Assembly: GCA_018664825.1 (NCBI GenBank)
Contig: JABJNO010000024.1
Span: 7,204 to 71,203 of the forward strand
Source: Candidatus Parcubacteria bacterium
Lineage (GTDB): Bacteria > Patescibacteriota > Patescibacteriia > UBA1558 > GWA2-36-10
DNA: 64,000 nucleotides
Reading direction: 5' to 3'
Shown: piece by piece, positions 5,507-45,257 of the stretch
How the letters are laid out: each line of letters opens with the position of its first letter
Numbering within the stretch: position 1 is the stretch's first letter
Notes under the pieces: model-generated
The model's input: the letters and a program-made list of their open reading frames with translations, nothing else
Database searches by the model: none
Told to the model about the DNA's origin: nothing
Position numbers and translations under genes: made by a program

Positions 5507-6103
5507 TTACCTACCAGCAGGATAATTAAACATTACTTCGGATACTTGACCTTTTTCACTCAAAGCTAGGGCCTGCTGTCCTAGTTTTTCATTACTTGCA
5601 TTTAACATTAATTTTCCTTTTACTACTATATCGTCTGGTAGTTCTGTAATAAAATTATTTTCATCCAAAATTAAATCTCCATAAACTACCAATCCTTTTG
5701 GTAGTTCTTTGACTCCAGAAAAATTTATATTAAAACTTCCTACTACTTCTAGGTTGTCTGGCAATTGCCTGATTTTTCCTTCTCCGCGGATATCCAAATC
5801 TGTATCTACTATAAACCTGTATCTATCCGCATAAAGCCTAGCTCCATATTTTTTCTCTACTCTTTCTTGTTTTTGTTTTGTTATCTTTGCTATAAAATGA
5901 AAAAAACTAAGCCTATCCATGTTGGTGGTAAAATAACAAAAATGATAACCTATCTGACGTTTTAGATCCTGTGCTCTTCTAATAAGTAGCTGAGTATCCT
6001 TTGTATCAGAAATATTTTCAAGATCAGAAATAAAATCTACCAAAGCAGGTCTCAACTGTTGCTCTATTACCATTTTATAATCTGGACATTTTTCTTTTCT
6101 CAT
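5507..6103 (-). CDS. LRR-like repeat protein, paralogue family member
   Basis: Repeats LPDNLEVVGSFNINFSGVKELPKGLVVYGDLILDENNFITELPDDIVVKGKLML; tail ALALSEKGQVSEVMF. Track ORF reaches 6241 but would overlap hup, so the start is trimmed to the ATG at 6103 (MRKEKCPDYK). Confidence 0.55.
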   Translation of the reverse strand: MRKEKCPDYKMVIEQQLRPALVDFISDLENISDTKDTQLLIRRAQDLKRQIGYHFCYFTTNMDRLSFFHFIAKITKQKQERVEKKYGARLYADRYRFIVDTDLDIRGEGKIRQLPDNLEVVGSFNINFSGVKELPKGLVVYGDLILDENNFITELPDDIVVKGKLMLNASNEKLGQQALALSEKGQVSEVMFNYPAGR

Positions 6104-6179
6104 ACATACATAATATAGCAAACAAAAAAGGCTGTCCATGTAGGACAGGCCTTTTTTAATATAATTTCTATTCTCTGCC

Positions 6180-6461
6180 TTAGAGTACTGAATCTTTAGC
6201 AGCTTTTGCAACACGGAATTTAACAACAGTCTTGGCAGCAATCTGGATAGATTCGCCTGTGGCTGGGTTACGTCCCATACGTGCAGCGCGGTCTTTCTTT
6301 ACCAATTTTCCAATTCCAGGAATGATAAATTCGCCACTTTCTCTGACTTCGCTATAAGCCAATTCTGCAAAAGTGTCCATAAATTCGGTCACTTCTTTTT
6401 TGCTCATGCCTGTCTTTTCAGCCAAGACATTTAGCAACTGTGATTTTGTTAGTTTTGCCAT
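6180..6461 (-). CDS. hup: DNA-binding protein HU
   Basis: 93 aa, MAKLTKSQLL...GFGKF-like arm RMGRNPATGESIQIAAKTVVKFRVAKAAKD. Confidence 0.9.
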   Translation of the reverse strand: MAKLTKSQLLNVLAEKTGMSKKEVTEFMDTFAELAYSEVRESGEFIIPGIGKLVKKDRAARMGRNPATGESIQIAAKTVVKFRVAKAAKDSVL

Positions 6462-6707: not shown

Positions 6708-7715
6708 CTAATTAGAATCAAAAGCCAAGAAAAATCCTTGTTTAGCTCTCTTGATAAATTGAGGCCTATTGAGCTTTAGGGTTTCAATAATGCCTTTAGG
6801 TGACAAATCATAGCCCTCTATCTCTATATTTTTACCATCAACCTCAGCTGTAGCCATGACTGGCTGTGGCTCACCGATGGCATAAGCCAATTTTACCAAT
6901 ACTTCTTTGGCTTGATGCTTTTTGAGGTACTCAACAGCTAAATATCTAGCCATATAGGCCGCTGACCTATCTACCTTGGTACTGTCTTTGCCAGAAAAAG
7001 CTCCTCCGCCTACAGGAATCTGTGGTCCATAGTTGTCTGCTGTGATTTTACGTCCAGTCAGACCAGTATCAGCCTCAAATCCCCCCGATACAAATGGTCC
7101 GGCTGGGTTGATGTATAGTTTTTTATAATCTGATACTACCTGATCTACGATTTCTTTTTTCAAAAAATCTTTGAGCTCCTCAAAATCCACCTCCTCGCTA
7201 TGCTGAGTAGAAAGTACAACTGACTCTACCTTGTCCCCATCTAGAGTCACCTGAGCCTTGCCGTCTGGCCCTAGGGCCTTGGCAAATTTTGATTTACCCT
7301 CTTGCCTGACTCTCTCTAGTCTTCTGACAAGCCTTGTTGCCAGGACGTGTTCTAATGGAAGTAGCTCCTCTGTCTCAGAAGTAGCATAACCGACCATGAT
7401 TCCCTGATCTCCTGCTCCACCAGTATCTACTCCGTTGGCAATATCTGGACTCTGCCTGACAATATTGACCAAAATATCCAGCTCATCGTCATAGCCAATA
7501 TCTTTGTAGATTTGGCGAGCAATTTTATCGGCCTCAAATTTTGCCCTTGATGTTATCTCTCCTATTATTACCAATTGTCCGTGTCCCCCTAGAGTCTCTA
7601 CCGCTACCCTACTATTTGGATCTTGTCTTAGGCATTCGTCCAAAATAGCGTCTGAGATTTGATCACAAACTTTGTCAGGGTGTCCCATGGTGATGTTTTC
7701 TGCTGTCTTTAGCAT
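6708..7715 (-). CDS. metK: S-adenosylmethionine synthetase (compact, 335 aa)
   Basis: GHPDKVCDQISDAILD, GGGAFSGKD and DTYGG-like motifs; shortened C-terminus. Confidence 0.9.
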   Translation of the reverse strand: MLKTAENITMGHPDKVCDQISDAILDECLRQDPNSRVAVETLGGHGQLVIIGEITSRAKFEADKIARQIYKDIGYDDELDILVNIVRQSPDIANGVDTGGAGDQGIMVGYATSETEELLPLEHVLATRLVRRLERVRQEGKSKFAKALGPDGKAQVTLDGDKVESVVLSTQHSEEVDFEELKDFLKKEIVDQVVSDYKKLYINPAGPFVSGGFEADTGLTGRKITADNYGPQIPVGGGAFSGKDSTKVDRSAAYMARYLAVEYLKKHQAKEVLVKLAYAIGEPQPVMATAEVDGKNIEIEGYDLSPKGIIETLKLNRPQFIKRAKQGFFLAFDSN

Positions 7716-7736
7716 TGTTCTTTTTTGTTTAATAAT

Positions 7737-7878
7737 AAAAAATTTCTCCTCAAAAAGGAGAAATATAATGTAAACATCATCTTCCCCTTTTTAGGGGTTG
7801 GATTTAGCACCGTTCCTATAAGGATGGTTGCCGGCGGGTCGTCGAGCCAATTCTCTCACCGCACTCTTGATAACTAAA
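7737..7878 (-). ncRNA. SAM-I (S-box) riboswitch with intrinsic terminator in the metK leader
   Basis: Minus-strand transcript GUUAUCAAGAGUGCGGUGAGAGAAUUGGCUCGACGACCCGCCGGCAACC...ACGGUGCUAAAUCCAACCCCUAAAAAGGGGAAGAUGAUG matches the S-box consensus (UUAUCAAGAG..GGNGGAGGGA..GCAACC..GGUGCUAA.UCC), followed by hairpin UUUCUCC-UUUUUGA-GGAGAAA plus U-tract just upstream of the metK ATG. Confidence 0.8.
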
Positions 7879-7970
7879 ATATTCAATTGTAAAGTAATAA
7901 CATTATATATCATTTTGTAAAATTTGCCAAATAGTGCCATAATATATGTATAAAAATTAAACAAAAAAAT

Positions 7971-8198
7971 ATGTTTCATGAAAAGCATTCCCGTACAATT
8001 GCCAAATCAGTTACTTGGCGCCTAATAGCCTTTGTGTCCAGTATACTGGTGCTCTATTTATTAATTGGAGATTGGGAAACTTCTTTTTATCATTCAGTGA
8101 TTATCCATTCAGTAAAAACTGTTCTCTACTATTTCCACGAAAGAATCTGGAATTCATCAAACTTTGGACAAGAAATACGAAAACCTAAGGCCGTGTAA
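7971..8198 (+). CDS. DUF2061-family small membrane protein
   Basis: RTIAKSVTWRLIAF...YYFHERIWN pattern typical of DUF2061. Confidence 0.55.
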   Translation: MFHEKHSRTIAKSVTWRLIAFVSSILVLYLLIGDWETSFYHSVIIHSVKTVLYYFHERIWNSSNFGQEIRKPKAV

Positions 8199-8201
8199 TA
8201 T

Positions 8202-8849
8202 ATGACCTCAATAACTTGCAAACAACTTAAAAGAGACTATACAACATTAAAAGCTGATCTTATAGAGATTAATCAGCTCTTGGCTACTGGCAAAAATCAT
8301 AGCGACATAGCAGAAATCAAAGACAAACAAAAACAACTTCTTGATGCCATAGAAACTTTGGCAGAAGATGTTTTTGTCTTCAAGGCTCACGAACAAGTCA
8401 CGGCTATGTTGCTCGGAGATACTAGATTACAATCTGGTAGAGTAAAAACCCGTGAAAAAGCAACTACCTGGATTGAAAAAAATGTTGACCTAGACATGGC
8501 ACAAAAATTGGTGAAAATAGAAAATCTTTATTACGAAAACGTCCAGATTACTAAACTACCTGACAATCTCTATATCAAAGGAAATCTAGAACTACGAGGA
8601 TCTCAAGTTGCTGAACTTCCTGGATTTTTATATGTGGGAGGAAATATGGATATACAAGAAACTAGAATCACAACCTTGCCCAATGGTTTGTCTGTAGGAG
8701 GAAATTTGAACCTAATAAATTCAGGTGTCGCTACTTTTCCTGAAATTATCTATATCAAAGGAGGTTTGATAGTAGGAAAAAATCTAGAAGACGCAGCCAA
8801 TAAACTAAAAGAGAACGGAAGAGTCCAAGGAGAAATCACAGTAATATAA
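8202..8849 (+). CDS. LRR-like repeat protein, paralogue family member
   Basis: N-term ITCKQLKRDYTTLKADL; repeats KLPDNLYIKGNLELRGSQVAELPGFLYVGGNMDIQETRITTLPNGLSVGGNLNL; tail AANKLKENGRVQGEITVI. Confidence 0.65.
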   Translation: MTSITCKQLKRDYTTLKADLIEINQLLATGKNHSDIAEIKDKQKQLLDAIETLAEDVFVFKAHEQVTAMLLGDTRLQSGRVKTREKATTWIEKNVDLDMAQKLVKIENLYYENVQITKLPDNLYIKGNLELRGSQVAELPGFLYVGGNMDIQETRITTLPNGLSVGGNLNLINSGVATFPEIIYIKGGLIVGKNLEDAANKLKENGRVQGEITVI

Positions 8850-8853
8850 AAAT

Positions 8854-9393
8854 ATGCCCGAACCAAGCTGCGAACAACTTAGACAAGAATTGACTGCGGT
8901 AAAATCTATACTGGCTGAATTTGCTTTAGCTATAAACGAACCCTTGAGTGATAAAAGTATCAAGATTTTACAAAGCCTAAAAACTAAAATTCAAAAAGCT
9001 ATACCCAAACTAGACAACTTGTGGTTTGATTCTGAACCAATCTTGAATAAGATTATAGATATAGTAATAAAAACAGCTGACAGTAGTCCAAGCAACAAAG
9101 AAGAAGTAGAACAACTAATAAAAGATTGGACAAAAAATAATCTAAGAATAGACCAAAAGAATAGAAAAATAATAATTACAGGAGACTGGGATCTTTCAGG
9201 TTCTACTATTGGCGAGCTACCCGACAATATCCAGATAGAAGGAAATTTACACCTTGAGCATAGCTCAATTAGTAAACTACCAAACAACCTCTATGTAGAA
9301 GGATGGTTATACGTAGACAAAAGTTTGAAGAAAGAAGCAGAAAGACTAGCTAAACTAGGAAATTTAAAAGAAGGCGTAGCAACAAGAGAATAA
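8854..9393 (+). CDS. LRR-like repeat protein, paralogue family member (tandem to 8202)
   Basis: N-term PSCEQLRQELTAVKSIL; repeats ELPDNIQIEGNLHLEHSSISKLPNNLYVEGWLYV; tail AERLAKLGNLKEGVATRE. Confidence 0.65.
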   Translation: MPEPSCEQLRQELTAVKSILAEFALAINEPLSDKSIKILQSLKTKIQKAIPKLDNLWFDSEPILNKIIDIVIKTADSSPSNKEEVEQLIKDWTKNNLRIDQKNRKIIITGDWDLSGSTIGELPDNIQIEGNLHLEHSSISKLPNNLYVEGWLYVDKSLKKEAERLAKLGNLKEGVATRE

Positions 9394-34102: not shown

Positions 34103-35896
34103 TTAGAGGCGTTTTAAATCCATATTAACCATAATATTATAAGTTTTATTATCTACATCATATTTTATTACTTCATATCCTTTTGTTAGCTCCCAATCTG
34201 ACAATGGGCCTATATTTTGAGCAGAAATAACCCCTGACAAGTACTCATCTACCTCCTGCTCATTTATTTTGAAAAAAGTAAACTCTGCATCTATAGTAAG
34301 AGGGTCGCCCAAGTTGTATTCATCTTCTGAGGGGGATATTTTTTTTATATCAGCCAAAACAGCTTTGGGTAAAATATAAAATCCCTCCTCTTGTGTAGAC
34401 TCTAGATCAAGGCTACCAAGGGTCCTGGTATCCAACAGGTCATAAATATCTTTTGTGATTTCCTGATATCCATATTCTACACCCCTACTTGTTATCACAT
34501 CACTCACCTTGTGCTCTTTTGCAGAAATAAAATTATCGACACCAGTCTCATTTGTCGTGGCTACAAAAATTTCTTTATCAAAAGAATAATTATCCAAAAC
34601 AACAACAATATCTTCCTGATCATCGATAACTGCATCTTTTTGACCAAGACCGGGTATAAAGCTCGAAATCTTATCTCGGAACATAAAACCAGCCCCTGCC
34701 AATAATAATATAGCTAAAATAATAATATACAAAGGTTTTATTTTGAGCTTCTTTTTTTCTTCTTCAACTATCTCCTCGCCATCTTCATTGACTGTTTTGA
34801 CTGGGACAATTGGCTCTTTAGAAACTTCTTCTTTTTTTTCTCTAGAAAATTTTTGATAAAAGTTGATGACTGATTTAGAGTACCCAAGTTTGGCCAATCC
34901 CAAAGCATTTACAAACTTGGTATTGGCTACTGGCTTTGGTAAAAAACTAGCATCAATAAAAGAATAGCCTACTATAGCCGGGATACTAAGATTGTCTCCA
35001 AAATATTTATCTATACCTTTCATCTGAGCCAAACCACCAATCAAGACTATTTGTTCTATTTTTTTATTGTAAGTAGTCTGAAAATAATTTATAAAATTTT
35101 TCAGCTCATCTGCCAGTGGCTGAAGCTGTCCTTGAATAATCAACATTATTTCCCCATCATTGGCACTAGCATCCAATCCTACACTTTGTTTTCTTTCATT
35201 GGCTACTGAACGAGGAATATCCATCTTTTGAGCCAAGGCATCATCAATGTCGTTCCCGGCAATATTTATATTTATAGAATCACGAATACCAGAATGATCA
35301 AAAACAGAAGCAATGGTTGTCCTTGATCCTATATCCAATAAAAGAGTCACTTTTTTCTCAAGAGAATCTGATAATCCCGCAAAAGAGCTAATCGCTTCAC
35401 TGGTAATGCCCTCTATCTCAAAATTCATAGAATCAAATACATCCACAAAACTGGCAATCACATCTTTTTCAGCAGCTGTAAAAAATATTTCTTTATTCTC
35501 TCCTTTGTCTCCTAGTATTCTCATGTCAGTAACTAGATTATCAAAAGCCTCTGGAATCATTTCTTCTGCTCGCCTTTTGGCAACCTCTTTGATATCTTTG
35601 TCTTTTACGCTTTTTGGTATCGTCAAAATCTTGGAAAATACTTTTGACTCAGGAATTGACAAAAATACCTTATAGTCCTCTGCTTTACTAATAGGCTTTG
35701 GTTGGGCACTAGAAAAAAGTTGCTTCAAAGCAACCTTGAATTTTTCTTTATCCAAAATTCTACCATCCTCTACAATATCTGGCACCAAATTTACACGAGA
35801 ATAGGCCTCTACTTTGTATCCTTTTCTTTCTTTATCCAAAACAACAGCTTCGATAGAAAAATCTGCAATATCTATTCCTATTATGTTTTTTGCCAT
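34103..35896 (-). CDS. pilM: type IV pilus assembly protein PilM fused to a TM helix and PilN/PilO-like extracytoplasmic domain
   Basis: IIGIDIADFSIEAVVL actin-like ATPase fold (~380 aa), then TM LYIIILAILLLAGAGFMF and ~200-aa C-terminal domain. Confidence 0.7.
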   Translation of the reverse strand: MAKNIIGIDIADFSIEAVVLDKERKGYKVEAYSRVNLVPDIVEDGRILDKEKFKVALKQLFSSAQPKPISKAEDYKVFLSIPESKVFSKILTIPKSVKDKDIKEVAKRRAEEMIPEAFDNLVTDMRILGDKGENKEIFFTAAEKDVIASFVDVFDSMNFEIEGITSEAISSFAGLSDSLEKKVTLLLDIGSRTTIASVFDHSGIRDSININIAGNDIDDALAQKMDIPRSVANERKQSVGLDASANDGEIMLIIQGQLQPLADELKNFINYFQTTYNKKIEQIVLIGGLAQMKGIDKYFGDNLSIPAIVGYSFIDASFLPKPVANTKFVNALGLAKLGYSKSVINFYQKFSREKKEEVSKEPIVPVKTVNEDGEEIVEEEKKKLKIKPLYIIILAILLLAGAGFMFRDKISSFIPGLGQKDAVIDDQEDIVVVLDNYSFDKEIFVATTNETGVDNFISAKEHKVSDVITSRGVEYGYQEITKDIYDLLDTRTLGSLDLESTQEEGFYILPKAVLADIKKISPSEDEYNLGDPLTIDAEFTFFKINEQEVDEYLSGVISAQNIGPLSDWELTKGYEVIKYDVDNKTYNIMVNMDLKRL

Positions 35897-35919
35897 AATT
35901 TATATTTTAAAATTTTTAT

Positions 35920-36789
35920 TTAAAGACAATACTTGGTACAAGCTGAACAATCTGTATTACAATAAGTAGAACATTCTGCCGTTGGAGACGTACGAGCTAT
36001 GCCTACTCCCCCACAAGAACCACCTGTATAATCACAACCTTCACCACCAACATAAGTAGCTGAACAGGTATTGTTGCAATAAGGGCCACCGGCTTGTCTA
36101 GTGCCATCTCCGCAAGATTCATTTACACCATTACCATCATCACAAGTCTCGTCTGCTACGATCGCCGTACAATCAGCATTGCAGGCATCTGTATCTGGAG
36201 TACCATCTCCACAATATTCAGTAACCTCATTGCCATCATCGCAAACTTCTGAGCCAGTAGTTGCTCCATCTCCACACACCTGACAAACCCCACAATCAGC
36301 ACTACAGTCACCACAAGCCTCAATACCATTGCAGGTGCCGTCGCCACACCAAATATAAGATTTGTAAGACGTCTTGGACTCATTGAAAGAATCAATACTT
36401 ATGGGTGAACTAGATACATTTATTTTGACGACTGCTGTTTTGGTCCAACTACCTAGATCTGATGTACTAGTTGCTGTCGAAGTGACCGTTTTGAATCCAG
36501 CAACAATATTGGTACTAATAGTAGAACTACAAGCAACATCACTAGTCAATAAATTAAAACTACCAGAAATAGCTGTACTAGATGCAATCCTCACCAACGC
36601 ATCATCAATGCAAGTACTTATATCTATCGCTGCCTCCTGGCCTTCACTGATATGATAGTTTGCTAGCTTGTCATTGGTGTTGAGCATAGCAACAATAATA
36701 CTAGACAATACTGTCAGAGTAGTGATCATAATCACCAAAATCAAAGCTATGGCTCCTTTATTTTTTTCTTTTTTAATTTTATTCTTCAT
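35920..36789 (-). CDS. membrane-anchored protein with Myxococcus-type cysteine-rich repeats (CGDGxxxxxExCDDGN)
   Basis: VCGDGATTGSEVCDDGNEV, YCGDGTPDTDACNADC, ETCDDGNGVNESCGDGT; N-terminal hydrophobic anchor without the canonical prepilin Glu. Confidence 0.6.
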   Translation of the reverse strand: MKNKIKKEKNKGAIALILVIMITTLTVLSSIIVAMLNTNDKLANYHISEGQEAAIDISTCIDDALVRIASSTAISGSFNLLTSDVACSSTISTNIVAGFKTVTSTATSTSDLGSWTKTAVVKINVSSSPISIDSFNESKTSYKSYIWCGDGTCNGIEACGDCSADCGVCQVCGDGATTGSEVCDDGNEVTEYCGDGTPDTDACNADCTAIVADETCDDGNGVNESCGDGTRQAGGPYCNNTCSATYVGGEGCDYTGGSCGGVGIARTSPTAECSTYCNTDCSACTKYCL

Positions 36790-36795
36790 ATATTT

Positions 36796-38130
36796 CTAAT
36801 AATCTCCTTGTGATTGTAAAGCTGAAATTTCCTCATCTGTTAAAGCTCTATTATAAAATCTCACTTCATCTATTATACCATCAAAGGTGCCCGAGGTGCC
36901 TGAATAGCTTAGATGAGGTTCATAGGTATCATTAACTAATATTGGAACCGTCCCATCATAGATAACGGACGAAATGGGCCCTGTATCTTTTTCATAAACA
37001 TATACCTGTAGTCTATTATTATTTAGGTCATAAACACAAGCTATATGATAAGTATTTCCTACTACAATAGATGAATCAGCCGAAGCGACCTCAACGTATG
37101 TTGTTCCATCGAAAACTTTGCAATTTGCAGCCTCAGTAGTGGAAAGTAACTCCATCACATAACCTCTCTGGTATGCCCACTGAGTTTTGCTCATAATTTT
37201 ATGTTGAACCGAACCGTTAAATGCTTCCGGCTTTACCCAGGCTGTGATAGTAAATTGATCACTAAAATTCAAATCATCGGGGTCAGTAGTAGATTCAGTA
37301 GCAGGATCATAAGTAATACAAGTTGAAGGATCGTCATCATATTCAAAATCCAGTGCATAAGTACTACCGTCCACTATACCCGCAGCCCAAGTAGGTGTGC
37401 TGCCAGGTGGATAACAACCAGCTGGATTATCACCAATACTATCAACCGTAGTTGTACCCGTGCCCTCTTCAAGTCTCCACCAAGTCACTAAACCGCTTGG
37501 TTTTTCACTATACACTACTACCGTACTAGATGCTGTAGAGGTAGCTGACAACATAGCCTGCCGATTATTTTGACTACTGACTGACAAGGTGGTGGTAATG
37601 TTTATATTGGAATTGGCGGTAGAGGTCGCAGTCGAGGTTGCAAATGTCAGACTAGTATCCAAAACTTCAACATCATCTGAACTAAGATAATACTTGTTCC
37701 CAACGGCAAATGTATCAACACTACAATTGTTATAATGTCCGTTGCCATTCATATTTGGATAACAAGCCATGACAATCCTCCTGTCACTCAGGGTGACTCT
37801 CACTCCGCCACCATTTTTTACGCAAGTACCAGGTAGGTAATCATCATTTTCAAAATACAAAGCCAAAGCCTGAGGAGAAGCACCAAAGGTTGAACAATCT
37901 CCACTTGTATCTTTTAGCATGCCATCTGCATTTTTTACCAAATAATCAATAGCATTGAGTGCTATACGACGGTTACGCGAAGTTTCAACTCCGGCGCCTA
38001 CTTTGACTGCAGTATTTCCTAAAGTGAGGTTGAAACTCACAACAGCAGTAAGTAAAATACCAACAATAGCCAAATATACTATGGCTTCTACTAAAGTAAA
38101 TCCTTTTTTGTTTTTTGTTTTTTGTTTCAT
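36796..38130 (-). CDS. prepilin-type N-terminal domain protein with C-terminal LamG-like (concanavalin-type) jelly-roll domain
   Basis: KGFTLVEAIVYLAIVGILL; FDGIIDEVRFYNRALTDEEISAL LamG signature. Confidence 0.7.
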   Translation of the reverse strand: MKQKTKNKKGFTLVEAIVYLAIVGILLTAVVSFNLTLGNTAVKVGAGVETSRNRRIALNAIDYLVKNADGMLKDTSGDCSTFGASPQALALYFENDDYLPGTCVKNGGGVRVTLSDRRIVMACYPNMNGNGHYNNCSVDTFAVGNKYYLSSDDVEVLDTSLTFATSTATSTANSNINITTTLSVSSQNNRQAMLSATSTASSTVVVYSEKPSGLVTWWRLEEGTGTTTVDSIGDNPAGCYPPGSTPTWAAGIVDGSTYALDFEYDDDPSTCITYDPATESTTDPDDLNFSDQFTITAWVKPEAFNGSVQHKIMSKTQWAYQRGYVMELLSTTEAANCKVFDGTTYVEVASADSSIVVGNTYHIACVYDLNNNRLQVYVYEKDTGPISSVIYDGTVPILVNDTYEPHLSYSGTSGTFDGIIDEVRFYNRALTDEEISALQSQGDY

Positions 38131-41100
38131 TATCTATAGTTAAATCTCGCTCCATACAAAGTGGGAGTATTTGCATTGCTACTACAAGCAGTCAATGCAG
38201 CCTTGTATCTCAAATATCTTTTGCCATTCATAGTGGCGTCTGTACTACTAGTATAATATCCTGCACTAGCATCACTATAAACTTCGCTAGTGACTCCTGT
38301 TGCAAAAGTAACATCATCACTTACCTCAGCTGTAATCTGCAAATCACAACCAGCTGGTACGTTTTGTTCGACGGTCAGACTTTTTATTTCTTTATCTGTT
38401 GAGCCCAAGTCCAAAATAGACGAGTACAAACTACCAGGAGTATTGTACCCCATTTGTGTTTCTGCTCCTATAGTATAAAAAGTAGTAGTTGAATTTATAT
38501 TGTTGTATCCAGTGGTCATCCAATCTGTACTTTTGACATCAGAAGATATTCTTACTTCATCTATCTCTCCATGAAAAAAATAAGCTTTACTTGACCAATC
38601 TTTACCAATATTTACATCATAAACATTACCAATATCATAAGCCGTGGTGTCATCACACGGAGAAGCAGTACAGCCACTTTTGATAACTGTATTTATATAA
38701 GCTTGATAACCTACATCTCTATCTACGGTTGTAGCGATATAAGTCCAGACATCATCTGTAATAGCCGCCGTATCAACATACATACCTCCTAAATTTGTCA
38801 CATTATTATGACCCATATGAAAATATAATTTCTTGGTAGATAAATAGGTCCTAAACAACCAGGCATCGGCATCATTCACATCTCCATTGCCAAACCATAA
38901 CGTAGATGAGTACGTCTGATCTTGTGCTGAATCTGGTTTCATCCAAAACTCTACTGTAAAATCATCTGTGCCCTGAGCTTTGTCACTATTATTTTCTACA
39001 GTAAGATAATCATAATCACCATCAAAGTATTGAGCCCGTCCTACCCTGCCGCTTGACTCGCTAGGAGAATCAATATCATATTTGAACCAACCATTACTAC
39101 TATTGACGCTAGAGCCGACTCCACCTATACCCGAATCTGTCATGTGGGTGACCATTTTATAATTACTACTCCATACTTCATCTATATGTTCCGTGGTACT
39201 AGTGACGTTTGAATTCCCATAAAACATATAAATATCTGTATCAGCTGCCAAAGAATCTACTTTTACCCAGGCTACATATTCACCGGTAGTACTAGCATAA
39301 TATTCTATCTCATGATCTAGTACCAGGGTACCATCCGAATCTGAAGTAAATATTACGTCATAGCCATATTCATTGTATACGTTTCCTCCATTACCAGTAG
39401 TTTTAAAATAATCATTTGTTTCAGATATCACTACCGGAAAGTCAACATGCGCCCCACCTGAGACATTACCATTTTCTCCCAAGGTAATAGTCCTTTTATA
39501 ATCAAAAGTACCGCCAGTTGGATTGGTCCTAGTTTTGCCTATAAAATAAAGTGTCGTAGTGTTGGTCGTACCATCATGACCACCAACAAAAAATCCACGT
39601 GAAGTAGTACTATAAATAGACTGATCAAAGGTAGTATAATTTGATTTTCTACCAAAACCAGGATTACTCAAAACACCGTCTGCTGGGCTAGCCCTGTTGG
39701 TGATATCAATAGCATAAATCCCCCCTGGATTATAATAATGTATAAAAGCCATATCTTCATCAACATCTGGTATGACCTCGGCATAACCTTGACTAGTACC
39801 TACATTATAAGAGCCTATCTCTGATAAAGAGGTACCCTGATCTTCTACAATAATAAACTCTTCAGTTGAGCCTTCATTGCCCAAAACAAATCTATTTTTT
39901 CCTGAAGATTGTTCCAAAAATTCCATGTCCGTGATATCAGAAACATAAGTAGCATGGACATAAGCATTGGTACTTGTTGAGCTAAACCAACGATTATCAT
40001 TGATGCCCATTTTTTTGAACTCGCCCAAATAATCATCGCCCACTATATAAATATATGGCTCGGCTCCTGATTCATCCAAATAAACTTTGTTGATAGCATA
40101 ACCACTACCTGAGCCAGCACTTATCAGCTGAGCGGCATTGGTAACTGTCAAAGTGGCTCCTCCCCCAGTAATTTCAAAAGCATAGCCATAGCCATAACTA
40201 TCAAACATATACAAAGCATCGCCCGCTGCATTGACTACCATGTCCATAGCATAATATGTACCACCCGGATAGGTAATATCATAGCAAGTAGCCCCACTAC
40301 CAGAAATAGCCGTCAAGACAGTCAGGTCAACTACGCAGACGTTGTCTGTACCATCAGCTGGTAGTCTTTTGTTAATATACGCATAGTCACCATCAGGATG
40401 AAAGGCTACATTTTGAGTATGCCACGGCACTGCTCTTTTCCACTCTGGCCTAAAAATGCCTGCTGCTGCTCTAGATATATCATATTTTATAAAATCAAAA
40501 TTGGTAGTCCCAATAAGATAAAGACTCCTACCATCTGCCCCTAATTCATAATTATAAAAATCTTCCCAGGCTTTGTAGGCAGCCCTAGAATCTGGTATCA
40601 AATCAGCCCAGTCAGCCCAGCTTGTTTCTGAGCCTGCTAACTGAGAAAGAGCCAACTCACCAACCGTAGTGGTACTGATGTTGCTATATGATGAAGAAGC
40701 CATGGTCAGGTCTGACCAAAACTCTCTATCTCCTACCCCTGACCAATCTGATTGCTCCCAAGTTTTGTATGACCAATTGGTCACATAAGTAGTAAGTACA
40801 TAATTATCTATCCCTGTACCAGATACTGTGACGACTACTTTTTTTGTGTTTGGATCTTCGGTGCCAGAATCAGTTATATCCCAACTGGCATCTCTTTGAG
40901 CATTGGTAATAGTCACGATTCTAGTCAAATCACCAGAGGTATCCGATGTACCACTAAACTCCCAATAGCCACTAACATTTTTGGCCAGTCCTTTGGCACC
41001 ATCACCAGAAACTGTTTCTATAGTTTGCCAACTATTGTTACGGATAGCCCTGACAATCTCTATACCCTCATCTGCAAACTCTGTGACTGTCTGTCTATCA

Positions 41101-41231
41101 CCGACACCATAAAAATTTTTATACGAATTTGTCGCTACATAAAAAACACCAGTTGCTAAGATAGCAAAAATAGCCAAAGCTATAATTAGCTCTATAACAG
41201 AAAATCCTTTGTTTTTTATATTTATTTTCAT
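38130..41231 (-). CDS. giant (1033 aa) prepilin-type N-terminal domain protein with C-terminal LamG-like domain (putative tip adhesin/minor pilin)
   Basis: KGFSVIELIIALAIFAILATGVF; FHGEIDEVRISSD; Ser/Thr/Gly/Tyr-rich beta-rich body. Confidence 0.7.
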   Translation of the reverse strand: MKINIKNKGFSVIELIIALAIFAILATGVFYVATNSYKNFYGVGDRQTVTEFADEGIEIVRAIRNNSWQTIETVSGDGAKGLAKNVSGYWEFSGTSDTSGDLTRIVTITNAQRDASWDITDSGTEDPNTKKVVVTVSGTGIDNYVLTTYVTNWSYKTWEQSDWSGVGDREFWSDLTMASSSYSNISTTTVGELALSQLAGSETSWADWADLIPDSRAAYKAWEDFYNYELGADGRSLYLIGTTNFDFIKYDISRAAAGIFRPEWKRAVPWHTQNVAFHPDGDYAYINKRLPADGTDNVCVVDLTVLTAISGSGATCYDITYPGGTYYAMDMVVNAAGDALYMFDSYGYGYAFEITGGGATLTVTNAAQLISAGSGSGYAINKVYLDESGAEPYIYIVGDDYLGEFKKMGINDNRWFSSTSTNAYVHATYVSDITDMEFLEQSSGKNRFVLGNEGSTEEFIIVEDQGTSLSEIGSYNVGTSQGYAEVIPDVDEDMAFIHYYNPGGIYAIDITNRASPADGVLSNPGFGRKSNYTTFDQSIYSTTSRGFFVGGHDGTTNTTTLYFIGKTRTNPTGGTFDYKRTITLGENGNVSGGAHVDFPVVISETNDYFKTTGNGGNVYNEYGYDVIFTSDSDGTLVLDHEIEYYASTTGEYVAWVKVDSLAADTDIYMFYGNSNVTSTTEHIDEVWSSNYKMVTHMTDSGIGGVGSSVNSSNGWFKYDIDSPSESSGRVGRAQYFDGDYDYLTVENNSDKAQGTDDFTVEFWMKPDSAQDQTYSSTLWFGNGDVNDADAWLFRTYLSTKKLYFHMGHNNVTNLGGMYVDTAAITDDVWTYIATTVDRDVGYQAYINTVIKSGCTASPCDDTTAYDIGNVYDVNIGKDWSSKAYFFHGEIDEVRISSDVKSTDWMTTGYNNINSTTTFYTIGAETQMGYNTPGSLYSSILDLGSTDKEIKSLTVEQNVPAGCDLQITAEVSDDVTFATGVTSEVYSDASAGYYTSSTDATMNGKRYLRYKAALTACSSNANTPTLYGARFNYR

Positions 41232-41232
41232 T

Positions 41233-42321
41233 TTAATAATCTTTTAAACATCTTACTGAAAAACCCCATCCCTGATCATTGGTTGTTACGCCCATAGTAG
41301 CTGTGGGAGTATCTGTATAATGAGCATATGACTCTGTAGCTGGATCATCGTGTATAGTAGAAGTCCAAACCACCATTAAATCTGCATCATCATAAGTATT
41401 GGTACCTGTATTCATCTCGTTTGATTCAATCAAATCAAAACCAGAAGAACCATTTTTTTTGAGCTCTGTACCATCGCTAGCTGGGGGGAAATTTGCTTCT
41501 AGGGTATTTACTTCCGTATTTGTTGGTATATGCCAACCAGCGGGACAAATACCCTGAACACTAGCTGTCTCCACATAGCCCATCAACTCGTCCCAATGAT
41601 AAAGACCACCCTTGGCATCACAACCGCTAGTTACATCATTTTCGCACCATTTTTCTATTGCACCATTGTCAGTTGGATCAGTGGCAGCACTAGCCAACAT
41701 GGTGCCAGTATTCAAATTTTGTGTCATCCAGCACTGATCTCCTATCTTGACCGTCCGATAGCTATTTCCGTCTATATCAAATACCTTGTCCTCACCACAA
41801 TAAAAAAGTGAAGACACCCCTGTTGGGTTTATCACAACTGAACGTTGATCTCCTGTATTATTTTTGACCACTATCAACTGCTCTGTAGAAGTACTGATAG
41901 TACTAGTGCTGAGCCAACCACTACCTGCACTAAAATGAAATTCATTTATCTGAGTAGATTCTAAATATGTACCCGTCTTTCCTGTGCCTAGCGATACCTC
42001 CTGATCAAAAGAATTGTCCCTAGTAGAATAATAAACTCCTTTATACATTATCACGCAGTCTGCACTACTAGTACAATCCGCATGACTGTCCAATACTTTT
42101 ATTCCCCAAACATCTCCCTTGAATCCAGATGCAGAATAATTTCTAGCTTTATCTATCAAACCCATAATCTCTTGAGTTTTGGCATCAAGATCAGCATCCG
42201 TAATACGCCTAGTCACTAGACTAGTAGCTGAAGAAATCAAAATTACAAATATAGCAATAACAACCAAAATTTCTATTAGGTTAAACCCATCTTGTTTTAT
42301 TTTAAAATTTCTTATACCCAT
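41233..42321 (-). CDS. prepilin-type protein with C-terminal Fibrobacter succinogenes major paralogous domain (TIGR02145-like)
   Basis: GFNLIEILVVIAIFVIL; DGNSYRTVKIGDQCWMTQNLN..GGLYHWDELMG..CPAGWHIPTNTEVNTLE..GFSVRCLKDY. Confidence 0.7.
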   Translation of the reverse strand: MGIRNFKIKQDGFNLIEILVVIAIFVILISSATSLVTRRITDADLDAKTQEIMGLIDKARNYSASGFKGDVWGIKVLDSHADCTSSADCVIMYKGVYYSTRDNSFDQEVSLGTGKTGTYLESTQINEFHFSAGSGWLSTSTISTSTEQLIVVKNNTGDQRSVVINPTGVSSLFYCGEDKVFDIDGNSYRTVKIGDQCWMTQNLNTGTMLASAATDPTDNGAIEKWCENDVTSGCDAKGGLYHWDELMGYVETASVQGICPAGWHIPTNTEVNTLEANFPPASDGTELKKNGSSGFDLIESNEMNTGTNTYDDADLMVVWTSTIHDDPATESYAHYTDTPTATMGVTTNDQGWGFSVRCLKDY

Positions 42322-42332
42322 TTCAAAAATTA

Positions 42333-43562
42333 TTATCTTCCAACACCACTGGTCAATCCATAAATAGGATTGATGATAGCCATTGCCACAAAACCTACGA
42401 TCAATCCAATGAATATCAATAAAGCTGGCTCCAAGGCAGTTGATAAATTTTTGGTGGAGTGATCAACTTCTGATTCATAAAAATCTGACAGATAACTCAA
42501 TGACTCACCAAGTTTTCCAGAATTTTCACCTACCTGAGTCATACTACGGACAATACTTGGAAAATAATATTCTTTGGATAGACAGTCTGACAAGGCTGTG
42601 CCTTTTAGAACTTTGTGATATATGATGTCAATCTCTCTCCTATAAACATCACTAGTAACGGTTTCGGATACAATATGAAGAGACTTATCAATAGTAATTC
42701 CACTATCAAGTAAAGATCCTAAAGTACGGCAAAAAAGAGCAAGATTCATATTGCGTACAATTTTTCCAGTTATGGGTAGCTTCAAAAATACTGTGTGCAG
42801 CACAAGTCTACTTTGCCTTATTGCCAACAGGGCTCTAAACAAAATTACCAAGCCAATAATACCCAATAATACCCAGCGCCAATTGTCTCCCATAAAACTA
42901 GCAACAACTATAAATACCTTTGTAGTCATCGGCAATTCTACGCTTAGGGTTGTGAAAAAATTTACAATCTTTGGCAAGACAACAGCCGAGATGACTATCA
43001 TCAAACCAACAACAGCAACAATAACCAAGGTAGGATAGACTGAGGCAGATTTTATTTTTGATTTCAACTCATAACTTTTTCTTTGCTGGATTGATAACAA
43101 CTGAAGATTTTTTGCCAAGTTACCCCCTTTTTCTCCGACGGCAACCATATTTACAAACAAACGATCAAAATCTTTTTTGTGTTTTGCCAAAGAATCAGAT
43201 AAGGTATGCCCTTTACGAACATCTACCAAAATTTGATTTAGCTTCTTTGACATCAAGGGTGAACCACTGTCTGCCAAAACCTTGAGAGCCTTATCAATAG
43301 ATAACCCTGCCTGGATCATCACCGATAGATGTTTGGCAAACATTACTTTTTCCAAAAGTTTTAACTTGCCAAAAACAAGTCCTCCTTTTTTCTTCTTTCC
43401 TTTTGATTTATATTTATCTTCACTACCAGCCACTGGTTCCAAAGATACGATAATGCCCTCTTTGGAGGCGAGCTTGTTTCTAGCACCATTAATAGAAGAG
43501 GCCTCTATGGTTCCTTTTAATGTTTTTCCACTGGTGTTTGAAATTTTATAAGAATACAACAT
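42333..43562 (-). CDS. pilC: type IV pilus platform protein PilC (GspF family)
   Basis: Two GspF repeats with three TM segments. Confidence 0.85.
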   Translation of the reverse strand: MLYSYKISNTSGKTLKGTIEASSINGARNKLASKEGIIVSLEPVAGSEDKYKSKGKKKKGGLVFGKLKLLEKVMFAKHLSVMIQAGLSIDKALKVLADSGSPLMSKKLNQILVDVRKGHTLSDSLAKHKKDFDRLFVNMVAVGEKGGNLAKNLQLLSIQQRKSYELKSKIKSASVYPTLVIVAVVGLMIVISAVVLPKIVNFFTTLSVELPMTTKVFIVVASFMGDNWRWVLLGIIGLVILFRALLAIRQSRLVLHTVFLKLPITGKIVRNMNLALFCRTLGSLLDSGITIDKSLHIVSETVTSDVYRREIDIIYHKVLKGTALSDCLSKEYYFPSIVRSMTQVGENSGKLGESLSYLSDFYESEVDHSTKNLSTALEPALLIFIGLIVGFVAMAIINPIYGLTSGVGR

Positions 43563-43568
43563 ATATAA

Positions 43569-45257
43569 TTATTGTTTAGTTACTCTAAATATTTCTTCTA
43601 GGGTAGTCTTACCTGATATGGCTTTTTTAAAACCATCCTCAAACATAGTAGTCATACCTTGTTCCATGGCTTTTTTACGGATAGTATCCGCATCGGCCCG
43701 ACTTAATATAAGATTTTTTATTTCTTCATCTATCTGTAACACTTCAAAGATACCTATACGTCCAGCATAACCACTGTTGTTGCAGTTTTCACATCCTTTA
43801 CCTTTATAAAAACGGATATCTTTTATTTCTTGAGTGTCCAAAAATTTGCTAATATCTATCTCACTTTTTAGATCTTCGACTTCTTTTTCATCAAGAGTAT
43901 AACTGACAATACATTTCATACAAATTCTCCTGATCAAACGCTGAGCAACCACAACATTGACCGTGGAGGCTACCAAAAATGGCTCAACATTCATATCAAA
44001 TAAACGTGGTAAAGCAGTAGAAGCATCATTGGTATGCAGGGTGGTCAAAACAAGATGTCCGGTCATCGCAGAGTTGATAGAAATAGCCGCTGTTTCCTCA
44101 TCTCGAATCTCACCTACCATGATGATGTCCGGATCTTGACGAAGAAGAGAGCGTAATCCAGAGGCAAAGGTAAGGTTGGTATTTGCATTTACTTGAATCT
44201 GATTGACGCCAGTCAAATCATACTCTACTGGATCTTCGATAGTACATATATTTACATTTCTGCTATTCAAAATTTTGATGACTGCATAAAGAGTAGTCGT
44301 CTTACCAGAACCCGTAGGACCGGTCACCAATATCATGCCATATGGTCTTTTGGCAGCTTTGCTAATTATCCCAAAATCACGACCATTCATACCTAGACCC
44401 TCAAGGTCAAACTGTTTACCTTTTGATGACAAAAGACGCATTACTATCTTTTCACCTTGTGTAATAGGAATTGATGAAACTCTAATGTCCAACTTCTCGC
44501 CTTCTACGGTAGTTACAATTTTACCATCCTGAGCAGAGCGAATTTCGTCGGTACGTAGCTGGGCCAAAATTTTTATCCTAGCAACTATAATATTCAAAAT
44601 ATTTTTTGGTAGTTTCAAAACATCATACAAAATACCATCTATCCTAAAGCGAACTATGATTTCTTTATCGGCTGGCTCAATATGAATATCAGAAGCATGA
44701 TTGGTGTATGCATAGCTAAACAAATCATCCACTAGGCTGACCACCGAAATATCCTCAGCAGCTGACCCCTGAGCTTTGATAGCGTGTTTTTGGATACTGC
44801 TTGCATACTCCTGTTGGATTGTCTTACGATAAAGACTAAAGCTATTGTCAATACTAAACTGCGTAGCATAATAAGGGTTTACTTTATCTCCAACTTTTTT
44901 TTCAACCATCTTGATCATGGCATAGTCAAAAGGATTGGTCATGGCTATTTTTACCCCTTCTTCATCTCTACCAAAAACAATCATTTTCTGTTTTCTAGCA
45001 ACTACTTCCGGAATCAAGCCTAAGATTTCTGATTTTATTTTTTGTTTTGCCAAATTTACAAAACGAATATGTAATTGGTTGGCTATCAGCTGACCAATTT
45101 CTTCTGCCTTTATCAGATTTTGCTTTATCAAAAAAGTAGCAAAATCTTTTTTTCTTTCTTTTGCGGTCTTCAAGGCAGTATCCAAAATACTAGTTTCGAT
45201 CAAACCTATCTTGGAAATAATTTGATAAATTTTTTCATCAGAAATTATTTTGTTCAT
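43569..45257 (-). CDS. pilB: type IV pilus assembly ATPase PilB (GspE family)
   Basis: N-terminal GspII_E_N domain, Walker A GPTGSGKTT, Asp box, tetra-Cys CMKC..CENC. Confidence 0.95.
   Translation of the reverse strand: MNKIISDEKIYQIISKIGLIETSILDTALKTAKERKKDFATFLIKQNLIKAEEIGQLIANQLHIRFVNLAKQKIKSEILGLIPEVVARKQKMIVFGRDEEGVKIAMTNPFDYAMIKMVEKKVGDKVNPYYATQFSIDNSFSLYRKTIQQEYASSIQKHAIKAQGSAAEDISVVSLVDDLFSYAYTNHASDIHIEPADKEIIVRFRIDGILYDVLKLPKNILNIIVARIKILAQLRTDEIRSAQDGKIVTTVEGEKLDIRVSSIPITQGEKIVMRLLSSKGKQFDLEGLGMNGRDFGIISKAAKRPYGMILVTGPTGSGKTTTLYAVIKILNSRNVNICTIEDPVEYDLTGVNQIQVNANTNLTFASGLRSLLRQDPDIIMVGEIRDEETAAISINSAMTGHLVLTTLHTNDASTALPRLFDMNVEPFLVASTVNVVVAQRLIRRICMKCIVSYTLDEKEVEDLKSEIDISKFLDTQEIKDIRFYKGKGCENCNNSGYAGRIGIFEVLQIDEEIKNLILSRADADTIRKKAMEQGMTTMFEDGFKKAISGKTTLEEIFRVTKQ

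What the first reader, a model, noticed from the sequence alone, without database searches (positions are those of the whole stretch)
7737..7878. Canonical SAM-I riboswitch with terminator controlling metK
The minus-strand leader reads GUUAUCAAGAGUGCGGUGAGAGAAUUGGCUCGACGACCCGCCGGCAACC..ACGGUGCUAAAUCCAACCCCUAAAAAGGGGAAGAUGAUG. All S-box landmarks are present (P1, the kink-turn region GGUGAGAGA, GCAACC, GGUGCUAAAUCC, P4 hairpin). A UUUCUCC/GGAGAAA terminator with U-tract lies immediately before the metK AUG. The track ORF 7791-7988 is an artefact of this RNA. This is worth noting because riboswitch regulation is seldom reported in reduced CPR-like genomes.
Basis: partly seen in the sequence, partly recalled or inferred. 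Interest (0 to 1): 0.5.

Follow-up and report, generated by a model that had tools for sequence, protein, structure and literature searches.

The report
SAM-I riboswitch controlling metK (Parcubacteria)
This is a genuine but textbook S-adenosylmethionine-sensing RNA switch that most likely stops transcription of the SAM synthetase gene when SAM is plentiful; the only mildly new point is that it sits in a reduced Parcubacteria (CPR) genome, where such switches prove common upstream of metK but are hardly ever written about.

Summary
On the minus strand, 7876-7774 matches Rfam RF00162 (SAM-I/S-box) over the full model at 66.2 bits (gathering score 44.4, E 3.4e-13). Its unconstrained MFE fold is the P1-P4 four-way junction. 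An 11/12 sigma-70-like promoter lies upstream (7930-7902). Downstream lie a 10-bp hairpin (7764-7742) with a U tract, then metK 26 nt later (7715-6708; all three Pfam domains; TIGR01034 above cutoff). A 19-bp antiterminator (7793-7751) uses the 3' strands of P4 and P1 plus the terminator's 5' strand. It is the MFE before the terminator's 3' strand is made, and nearly isoenergetic with the P1+terminator state (-37.6 vs -38.5 kcal/mol). This is a classic transcriptional OFF switch. The window's proteins are deposited as 'Candidatus Parcubacteria bacterium'. Seventeen of the 18 closest CPR metK loci carry a SAM-I-like leader: 14 with strong model scores, three weak ones with large insertions. Covariation supports all helices and the pseudoknot. 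ORF 7791-7988 is not conserved and not called by source pipelines. Verdict: real, ordinary, a new member of a known kind. SAM binding and termination are inferred, not measured. Interest is low.

The parts
7902..7930 (-). Sigma-70-like promoter: -35 TTGGCA (7930-7925), 17-nt spacer, -10 TATAAT (7907-7902). The inferred transcription start is near 7895, about 19 nt before the aptamer.
   Evidence: 11 of 12 consensus matches, the best site in the 2-kb scan. Sequence read. The start site is inferred, not measured.
7774..7876 (-). SAM-I (S-box) aptamer. P1 is 7874-7869 with 7781-7776. P2, with kink-turn-type GA dinucleotides, is 7864-7834. P3 is 7832-7806. J3/4 is 7805-7798. P4 is 7797-7784. The pseudoknot pairs the P2 loop UUGG (7850-7847) with J3/4 CCAA (7801-7798).
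   Evidence: RF00162, 66.2 bits, GA 44.4. (the MFE is the four-way junction). (covariation in all helices and the pseudoknot across 11 CPR sequences). (42/48 conserved positions identical).
7751..7793 (-). Antiterminator hairpin UAAAAAGGGGAAGAUGAUG-UUUA-CAUUAU(A)UUUCUCCUUUUUG: 19 pairs and one bulge. It consumes the P4 3' strand and loop, the P1 3' strand and the terminator 5' strand.
   Evidence: it is the MFE (-33.6 kcal/mol) of the transcript ending at the terminator loop. In the full leader it scores -37.6 kcal/mol against -38.5 for P1+terminator; the core hairpin alone is -10.4 kcal/mol; the same aptamer-3'/terminator-5' pairing is seen in L001, L003, L004, L008, L013, L014 and L015.
7731..7764 (-). 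Intrinsic terminator: a 10-bp stem AUUUCUCCUU/GAGGAGAAAU with a 3-nt loop (7764-7742), followed by UUUUUAUUAUU (7741-7731).
   Evidence: terminator scan. (-10.1 kcal/mol). It forms in the MFE of the full leader.
6708..7715 (-). metK, methionine adenosyltransferase, 335 aa (a short form). This is the regulated gene.
   Evidence: Pfam S-AdoMet_synt N, M and C domains. (TIGR01034, 337 bits against a cutoff of 309.4). (E 4e-75 to solved MAT structures). (NCBI MBT4850273.1).
7791..7988 (-). Spurious 65-aa ORF spanning the promoter and most of the aptamer. The 50-aa ORF on the opposite strand, 7725-7877 (+), lies over the same non-coding leader and is probably spurious too, though only the first point below was checked for it.
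   Evidence: mechanical ORF list. (no Pfam hit for 7791-7988). (no gene called between DUF2061 and metK by JGI, ENA or Logan callers). (stops in all frames across the aptamer on the riboswitch strand in L002, L003, L005, L009).

Best explanation
A class I S-adenosylmethionine riboswitch (S-box, Rfam RF00162) sits in the 5' leader of metK in a Candidatus Parcubacteria (CPR/Patescibacteria) genome and acts as a transcriptional OFF switch. Transcription most likely starts near 7895 from the TTGGCA-17-TATAAT promoter. When SAM is abundant it binds the four-way-junction aptamer (7876-7774) and stabilises P1 and P4. The segment GGGGAAGAUGAUG is then locked up, the downstream UUUCUCC pairs with GGAGAAA, and the 7764-7742 hairpin with its U tract ends the transcript 26 nt before the metK AUG. 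When SAM is low, P1 and P4 are not held. The 19-bp antiterminator (7793-7751) forms as soon as its 3' strand emerges, the terminator cannot form, and metK is transcribed. Shown here: family membership, the fold, the two mutually exclusive structures and their near-equal energies, the gene's identity, and conservation with covariation in relatives. Inferred: SAM binding, the start site, and actual termination.
For: RF00162 full-length hit at 66.2 bits against GA 44.4. 42/48 conserved positions are identical and two further pairs are compensated. The MFE of the aptamer is the P1-P4 junction. A promoter with 11/12 matches and a terminator hairpin with a U tract were found by independent scans. 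The antiterminator is the MFE of the nascent transcript. The P1+terminator and antiterminator states differ by only 0.9 kcal/mol in the full leader. Downstream is a true MetK. In 10 CPR relatives RF00162 hits lie directly upstream of metK above the gathering score. Four more score strongly with a CPR-trained model, and three more weakly with large insertions. Across the 11 aptamers 96.6% of pair cells are paired, against about 40% when partners are slid. 14 of 27 pairs show compensatory changes, including 3 of the 4 pseudoknot pairs, and 0/500 shuffles reach this. For 13 of the 17 relatives with an aptamer a terminator hairpin with a U-rich tail was seen after it, either by the automatic scan or by inspection of the folded tail. 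L007 and L016 showed none, L005 only a short U run by inspection, and L011 only the bare sequence. The genome barely uses Shine-Dalgarno sites (3/35 genes), so transcriptional control is the natural mode.
Against: No experiment shows ligand binding, termination or the start site. The aptamer's folding energy alone is unremarkable (z = -1.38). The terminator stem is AU-rich with only 3 G-C pairs and -10.1 kcal/mol, so its efficiency is uncertain. The five other contigs carrying this locus are 100% identical over 1283 nt, so they give no within-population test of constraint. The R1 model was trained on relatives and the alignment structure came from these sequences, so the counts lean slightly towards the structure.
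Confidence: 0.92

Rival explanations
1. The same aptamer acts mainly on translation. SAM binding would hide a ribosome-binding site, the GGAG in the 3' strand of the 7764-7742 hairpin, rather than terminate transcription.
For: The hairpin's 3' strand contains GAGGAG (7751-7746). Some SAM riboswitch classes do act on translation (general knowledge; the SAM-III/SMK box on metK in Lactobacillales).
Against: The GGAG lies 30 nt upstream of the AUG, far outside Shine-Dalgarno spacing. Only 3 of 35 genes in the window have any SD-like motif, so this organism does not appear to rely on SD pairing. The hairpin is followed directly by a U tract, the signature of an intrinsic terminator. For 13 of the 17 relatives with an aptamer a hairpin with a U-rich tail is seen after it, with variable stem sequences.
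Confidence: 0.03
2. The element is a decaying or re-purposed S-box. It keeps the fold but no longer binds SAM, or binds another ligand such as SAH, and so does not regulate metK by SAM.
For: CPR genomes are reduced and fast-evolving. Six of the 48 conserved positions differ from the consensus. Ligand binding cannot be tested here.
Against: Four of those six differences are compensated pairs. The other two are U to C and A to C in the P2 internal loop, next to the retained GA. The positions I recall as contacting SAM in the solved SAM-I structure are all as in the consensus (alignment; the contact list is from memory). These are the P1 A-U/U-A pairs, G of AAGAG, CAAC of GCAACC and UG of GGUGC. 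The scores in CPR relatives and the covariation, including the pseudoknot, indicate purifying selection on the structure.
Confidence: 0.03
3. The region is protein-coding (ORF 7791-7988 on the minus strand, or 7725-7877 on the plus strand) and the RNA match is incidental.
For: Both ORFs exist mechanically.
Against: ORF 7791-7988 has no Pfam match, and no gene caller in five source assemblies calls a gene there. The reading frames across the aptamer are broken by stops in all three frames of the riboswitch strand in L002, L003, L005 and L009, while the RNA structure is kept. An E-value of 3.4e-13 against Rfam is not a chance match.
Confidence: 0.01

Closest known systems
SAM-I / S-box riboswitch (Rfam RF00162), e.g. 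the Bacillus subtilis metK and yitJ leaders and the Thermoanaerobacter tengcongensis metF aptamer used for the crystal structure
   Same: It shares the four-way junction P1-P4, the GA dinucleotides of the P2 kink-turn, the P2-loop/J3-4 pseudoknot, and the conserved AUCAAGAG, GCAACC, GGUGC and AGAU cores. It also has a terminator/antiterminator expression platform and sits upstream of a SAM-cycle gene.
   Different: The host is a Parcubacteria (CPR) bacterium rather than a Firmicute. P3 and P4 are minimal. The antiterminator recruits the P4 3' strand and even the P4 loop, not only the P1 3' strand. The terminator is AU-rich. The regulated MetK is a 335-aa short form.
SAM-IV (RF00634) and SAM-I/IV (RF01725), the other members of Rfam clan CL00012
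   Same: They have a similar ligand-binding core and the same ligand (established knowledge).
   Different: Those classes lack the internal P4 of SAM-I and use other peripheral pseudoknots (from my own knowledge). Here P4 (7797-7784) is present, and within the clan only RF00162 is reported as the best match.
SAM-III (SMK box), SAM-II/V and SAM-VI riboswitches upstream of metK or methionine genes in other phyla
   Same: They perform the same task: feedback control of SAM or methionine genes by SAM.
   Different: Their folds are unrelated and their control is mostly translational (established knowledge; PMC6914780 for SAM-VI). None of these families reached its gathering score anywhere in the window.

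Membership tests
SAM-I riboswitch (RF00162) | Covariance-model score at or above Rfam's gathering score, over the whole model | tested here: met
   66.2 bits against 44.4, E 3.4e-13, model 1-108/108, not truncated.
SAM-I riboswitch (RF00162) | Four-way junction of helices P1, P2, P3 and P4 | tested here: met
   The unconstrained MFE of 7876-7774 gives exactly these four helices. They agree with the Rfam consensus structure line. All four are supported by covariation in 11 CPR sequences.
SAM-I riboswitch (RF00162) | Pseudoknot between the P2 terminal loop and J3/4 | tested here: met
   UUGG (7850-7847) pairs with CCAA (7801-7798). Across 11 sequences 100% of cells are paired, and 3 of the 4 pairs show changes on both sides.
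SAM-I riboswitch (RF00162) | Kink-turn in P2 (tandem sheared G-A pairs flanking a short bulge) | tested here: inconclusive
   The conserved GA dinucleotides on both strands are present (UGAGAG and CGACGAC, aligned to consensus GAGGGA and UGAA). Two neighbouring conserved positions differ, U to C and A to C. The 3D kink cannot be tested with these tools.
SAM-I riboswitch (RF00162) | Conserved ligand-pocket nucleotides (P1 A-U/U-A, G of AAGAG, C-A-A-C of GCAACC, U-G of GGUGC) | tested here: met
   All are identical to the consensus in the cmscan alignment. 42/48 upper-case positions are identical overall. The assignment of these positions as ligand contacts is from my memory of the published structure.
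SAM-I riboswitch (RF00162) | Location in the 5' leader of a methionine or SAM metabolism gene, on the same strand | tested here: met
   metK starts 58 nt after the aptamer on the same strand.
SAM-I riboswitch (RF00162) | Expression platform with mutually exclusive terminator and antiterminator, the latter competing with aptamer helices | tested here: met
   Terminator at 7764-7742 with a U tract. Antiterminator at 7793-7751, which is the MFE of the nascent transcript. The two states score -38.5 and -37.6 kcal/mol.
SAM-I riboswitch (RF00162) | Selective binding of SAM (over SAH) and SAM-dependent termination | not testable with these tools
   This needs in-line probing or ITC and in vitro transcription.
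SAM-IV / SAM-I/IV (RF00634, RF01725) | No internal P4 and alternative peripheral pseudoknots; a better score for these models than for RF00162 | tested here: not met
   P4 is present. Within clan CL00012 the only hit kept is RF00162.

The most novel reading that the evidence does not exclude
The SAM-I riboswitch with a terminator on metK is an ancestral, near-universal regulatory circuit of Patescibacteria, found in 17 of 18 sampled lineages spanning Parcubacteria, Saccharibacteria, Uhrbacteria, Lloydbacteria and Paceibacterota. That would make it one of the few conserved metabolite sensors in these reduced, largely regulator-poor genomes. Some lineages (L006, L011, L012) have rebuilt the aptamer with an extra helix at or beside the P2 kink-turn position, plus expanded P3 or P4, so the Rfam model misses them. 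This distribution is not described in the literature I could search. Such elements would offer a native, host-compatible ligand-responsive part for the genetic tools now being built for CPR bacteria.
Probability: 0.55. Interest if true: 0.4.

Novelty: new member of a known kind. Interest (0 to 1): 0.2.

Why it matters
The window itself adds little: a standard Rfam scan finds the element, and it behaves as the textbook S-box does. From my own knowledge, NCBI's annotation pipeline also marks such Rfam riboswitch hits automatically, so the deposited record may already carry it. I did not verify this. The modest value lies in the context. CPR/Patescibacteria bacteria have few recognisable regulators and no methionine synthesis pathway to speak of. 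Yet they keep a SAM-sensing attenuator on metK across many lineages. This shows that SAM homeostasis is actively controlled in these epibionts. It fits the known Firmicutes-centred distribution of SAM-I. It also points to a ready-made regulatory part for CPR genetics. The insertion-bearing variants seen in three relatives may interest RNA structure specialists.

Tried and rejected
(1) Thermodynamic significance of the aptamer alone is not significant (z -1.38), so I did not use it as support. The full leader gives z -2.44.

(2) Within-population variation gave nothing. The five other contigs encoding the identical MetK are 100% identical over the 1283 nt of promoter, leader and metK.

(3) Literature. 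Eight searches were run, six of them pairing riboswitch terms with CPR, Patescibacteria, Parcubacteria, Saccharibacteria or TM7. None found a report of a native riboswitch in CPR. The only relevant statements are that no FMN riboswitch was found in Parcubacteria (PMC4508563) and that synthetic riboswitches might serve as tools (PMC11665869). Subscription-journal papers are not covered, so absence is weak.

(4) The Rfam model at a relaxed E-value missed L006, L011 and L012. A motif regex, folding and a CPR-trained model recovered them, but only at weak scores of 16-22 bits. I count them as probable, not certain.

(5) My automatic terminator finder failed or picked a poor hairpin for L002, L005, L007 and L016. 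For L002 and L005 the hairpin is visible by inspection. L007 and L016 have hairpins with weak U tracts.

(6) The plus-strand terminator-like site at 7784-7797 is just the complement of P4.

(7) SD sequestration was rejected on spacing and on genome-wide lack of SD motifs.

Full report
OBSERVATION. A cmscan of the whole 64-kb window against all 4227 Rfam families returns three hits at gathering threshold. Two are tRNAs. The third is RF00162 (SAM riboswitch, S-box leader) at 7876-7774 (-): 66.2 bits against a gathering score of 44.4, E 3.4e-13, covering model positions 1-108 of 108 without truncation. Of the 48 upper-case (highly conserved) consensus positions, 42 are identical. Four of the six differences are two compensated pairs, G-C to C-G in P2a and G-C to A-U in P2b. 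The other two lie in the P2 internal loop next to the retained GA. The unconstrained minimum-free-energy fold of the 103 nt is the expected four-way junction. P1 is 7874-7869 with 7781-7776. P2 is 7864-7834, P3 is 7832-7806 and P4 is 7797-7784. The energy itself is not unusual (z -1.38), which I record as a caveat.

SURROUNDINGS. The consensus scan finds its best promoter-like site in the 2-kb neighbourhood at 7930-7902 (-): TTGGCA, 17 nt, TATAAT, 11 of 12 matches. It also finds a terminator-like hairpin at 7764-7742 (-), ATTTCTCCT-TTTTG-AGGAGAAAT, followed by TTTTTATTAT. The ORF at 7715-6708 (-) has all three S-AdoMet synthetase Pfam domains. It scores 337 bits against the metK equivalog TIGR01034, whose cutoff is 309.4. 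It matches solved methionine adenosyltransferases at E 4e-75. Upstream lies a divergent DUF2061 gene (7971-8198 +). Downstream lies an HU gene (6461-6180 -) with its own promoter-like site. I found no terminator between metK and the HU gene, so read-through into it cannot be excluded.

MECHANISM. I folded nascent transcripts of increasing length. Up to the end of P1 the aptamer fold is the MFE (-27.9 kcal/mol). Once the transcript reaches the terminator loop, the MFE (-33.6) is different. P2 and P3 stay, P1 and P4 are gone, and a 19-pair hairpin forms at 7793-7751: UAAAAAGGGGAAGAUGAUG-UUUA-CAUUAU(A)UUUCUCCUUUUUG. This hairpin uses the 3' strand and loop of P4, the 3' strand of P1 and the whole 5' strand of the terminator, so it is an antiterminator. 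In the complete leader the state with P1 and the terminator scores -38.5 kcal/mol and the antiterminator state -37.6. The system is bistable, and ligand stabilisation of P1/P4 would decide the outcome. The GGAG in the terminator's 3' strand lies 30 nt from the AUG. Only 3 of 35 genes in the window have any Shine-Dalgarno-like motif. A translational mechanism is therefore unlikely. SAM binding, the start site near 7895 and real termination are inferred.

RELATIVES. The exact MetK, DnaK and PilB of the window are NCBI proteins MBT4850273.1, MBT4850297.1 and MBT4850318.1, named 'Candidatus Parcubacteria bacterium'. The same 1283 nt of promoter, leader and metK occur at 100% identity on contigs from five other metagenome samples. 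A scan of one genome per GTDB species with MetK returned 80 loci. The 18 closest (52-75% identity, match lengths of 813-999 nt) are Patescibacteria MAGs or unlabelled or evidently mislabelled MAGs with the same short MetK. The rest are mainly Planctomycetota, plus Bacillota, Acholeplasma, Spirochaetales and others.

RF00162 hits above the gathering score lie directly upstream of metK in 10 of those 18: L001, L002, L003, L005, L008, L009, L013, L015, L017 and L018. Four more score 24-42 bits with Rfam. With a model trained on the 11 CPR aptamers they score 36.8-66.5 bits (L004, L007, L014, L016). L006, L011 and L012 are missed by Rfam. They still contain the full core, AUCAAGAG/AUAAAGAG ... GNCAACC ... 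GGUGC ... AAGAU, with large insertions. They score weakly with the CPR model at 16-22 bits. Only L010 has nothing. Among the 62 non-CPR loci the CPR model hits only five Bacillota or Acholeplasma loci and no Planctomycetota.

COVARIATION. I counted 27 pairs, including the four pseudoknot pairs, on the alignment of the 11 above-threshold CPR aptamers. 96.6% of pair cells are standard pairs, against 30-42% when partners are slid by 1-3 columns. 14 pairs show changes on both sides, and 0 of 500 column shuffles reach the observed values. The pseudoknot is 100% paired, with compensatory changes in 3 of its 4 pairs.

TERMINATORS IN RELATIVES. For 13 of the 17 relatives with an aptamer, a hairpin with a U-rich tail was seen after the aptamer, by the automatic scan or by inspection of the folded tail. 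L007 and L016 showed none, L005 has only a short U run seen by inspection, and L011 was judged from the bare sequence only. In seven relatives the MFE of the truncated transcript pairs the aptamer's 3' part with the terminator's 5' strand, as in the window.

THE ORF. ORF 7791-7988 has no Pfam match and is not called by the JGI, ENA or Logan gene callers. Its frame is not conserved: stops occur in all three frames across the aptamer in L002, L003, L005 and L009. It is an artefact of an AT-rich leader.

COMPARISON WITH WHAT IS KNOWN. Every defining feature of SAM-I that can be tested in silico is met. The kink-turn geometry and ligand binding cannot be tested here. The element works like, and is a member of, the S-box family. 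The differences are minor: minimal P3 and P4, an AU-rich terminator, an antiterminator that also recruits P4, a CPR host and a short MetK.

LITERATURE. In the searchable library I found no paper reporting a native riboswitch in CPR. One paper notes the absence of FMN riboswitches in Parcubacteria (PMC4508563). A 2024 perspective mentions only synthetic riboswitches as future tools (PMC11665869). Searches gave nothing else. But the element is common, not rare, upstream of CPR metK genes.

VERDICT. This is a real, canonical SAM-I riboswitch with a terminator/antiterminator platform controlling metK. It is a new member of a known kind, and interest is low (0.2). The most novel reading not excluded is that this circuit is ancestral and near-universal in Patescibacteria, with insertion-bearing structural variants that current models miss. 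I give that a probability of about 0.55 and an interest of about 0.4 if confirmed.

Noticed in passing
L006:1208-1403, L011:1122-1325, L012:1265-1443: Three CPR metK leaders carry the complete SAM-I core but with large insertions. L006 and L011 have an extra hairpin at the P2 kink-turn position, so P2 becomes a three-way junction in the unconstrained fold. L012 has an insertion on the 3' side of P2; its unconstrained fold did not give a clean P2. L011 and L012 also have a longer P3, and L006 a branched P4. Rfam RF00162 gives no hit at E<=0.5. A CPR-trained model gives only 16-22 bits. This may be a structural variant of SAM-I that replaces the kink-turn.
   Followed up: partly
window 6708-7715 (-): MetK is a 335-aa short form, against 377-430 aa in solved structures. 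Several surface-loop deletions are visible in the alignment, and the C-terminal tail after the GHFG-equivalent (here QGFF) is missing. The 18 CPR relatives share the short length, whereas non-CPR relatives are 350-375 aa.
   Followed up: partly
window, whole (35 gene starts): Only 3 of 35 genes have a Shine-Dalgarno-like motif within 21 nt of the start codon. The leaders are A/U-rich instead, which suggests SD-independent initiation in this Parcubacteria genome.
   Followed up: partly
window 5507-6241 (-), 8202-8849 (+), 8854-9393 (+): Three small paralogous proteins flank metK. They contain tandem roughly 20-aa 'ELPDNLxVxGxLxL'-type repeats that look leucine-rich-repeat-like. The two scanned against Pfam (5507-6241, 8202-8849) had no hit; 8854-9393 was not scanned. 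Pairwise BLASTP gives E 4e-10 and 2e-8.
   Followed up: partly
L010 (Saccharibacteria MAG), upstream of 1480: This is the only one of the 18 CPR metK loci without any SAM-I-like leader. Its intergenic region is short, and in my reading contains only a promoter-like TATAAT stretch.
   Followed up: no
L001:1407-1500 and L002:1420-1500: The closest relatives have an additional GC-rich hairpin (ACCCGCC...GGCGGGU) inserted between the riboswitch terminator and the metK start codon. It is absent from the window.
   Followed up: no
L004:1106-1178: A second, weak hit of the CPR SAM-I model (17.6 bits, E 0.01) lies about 90 nt upstream of the main aptamer (1269-1381). It could be a degenerate tandem copy or chance.
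   Followed up: no
L002, L003, L009 (record titles): These MAGs are titled 'uncultured Gammaproteobacteria' but carry the CPR-type short MetK (54-70% identical to the window's) and a SAM-I riboswitch leader. The taxonomic labels look wrong.
   Followed up: no
window 7784-7797 (+): The plus-strand 'terminator-like' site reported by the scan is simply the reverse complement of the riboswitch P4 hairpin.
   Followed up: yes
window 34103-45257 (-): A type IV pilus gene cluster includes PilM-like and PilB/GspE-like ATPase genes and a 1033-aa protein with only an N-terminal prepilin cleavage/methylation motif, i.e. a giant pilin-like protein. A CheA-like kinase lies at 45714-47270.
   Followed up: no
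L081-L085 and JGI 3300072015: The promoter, leader and metK segment (1283 nt) is 100% identical on contigs from five other metagenome samples. The exact MetK is also encoded on a 283,695-bp JGI contig (3300072015) whose DNA could not be fetched. This indicates a widespread, nearly clonal population.
   Followed up: partly
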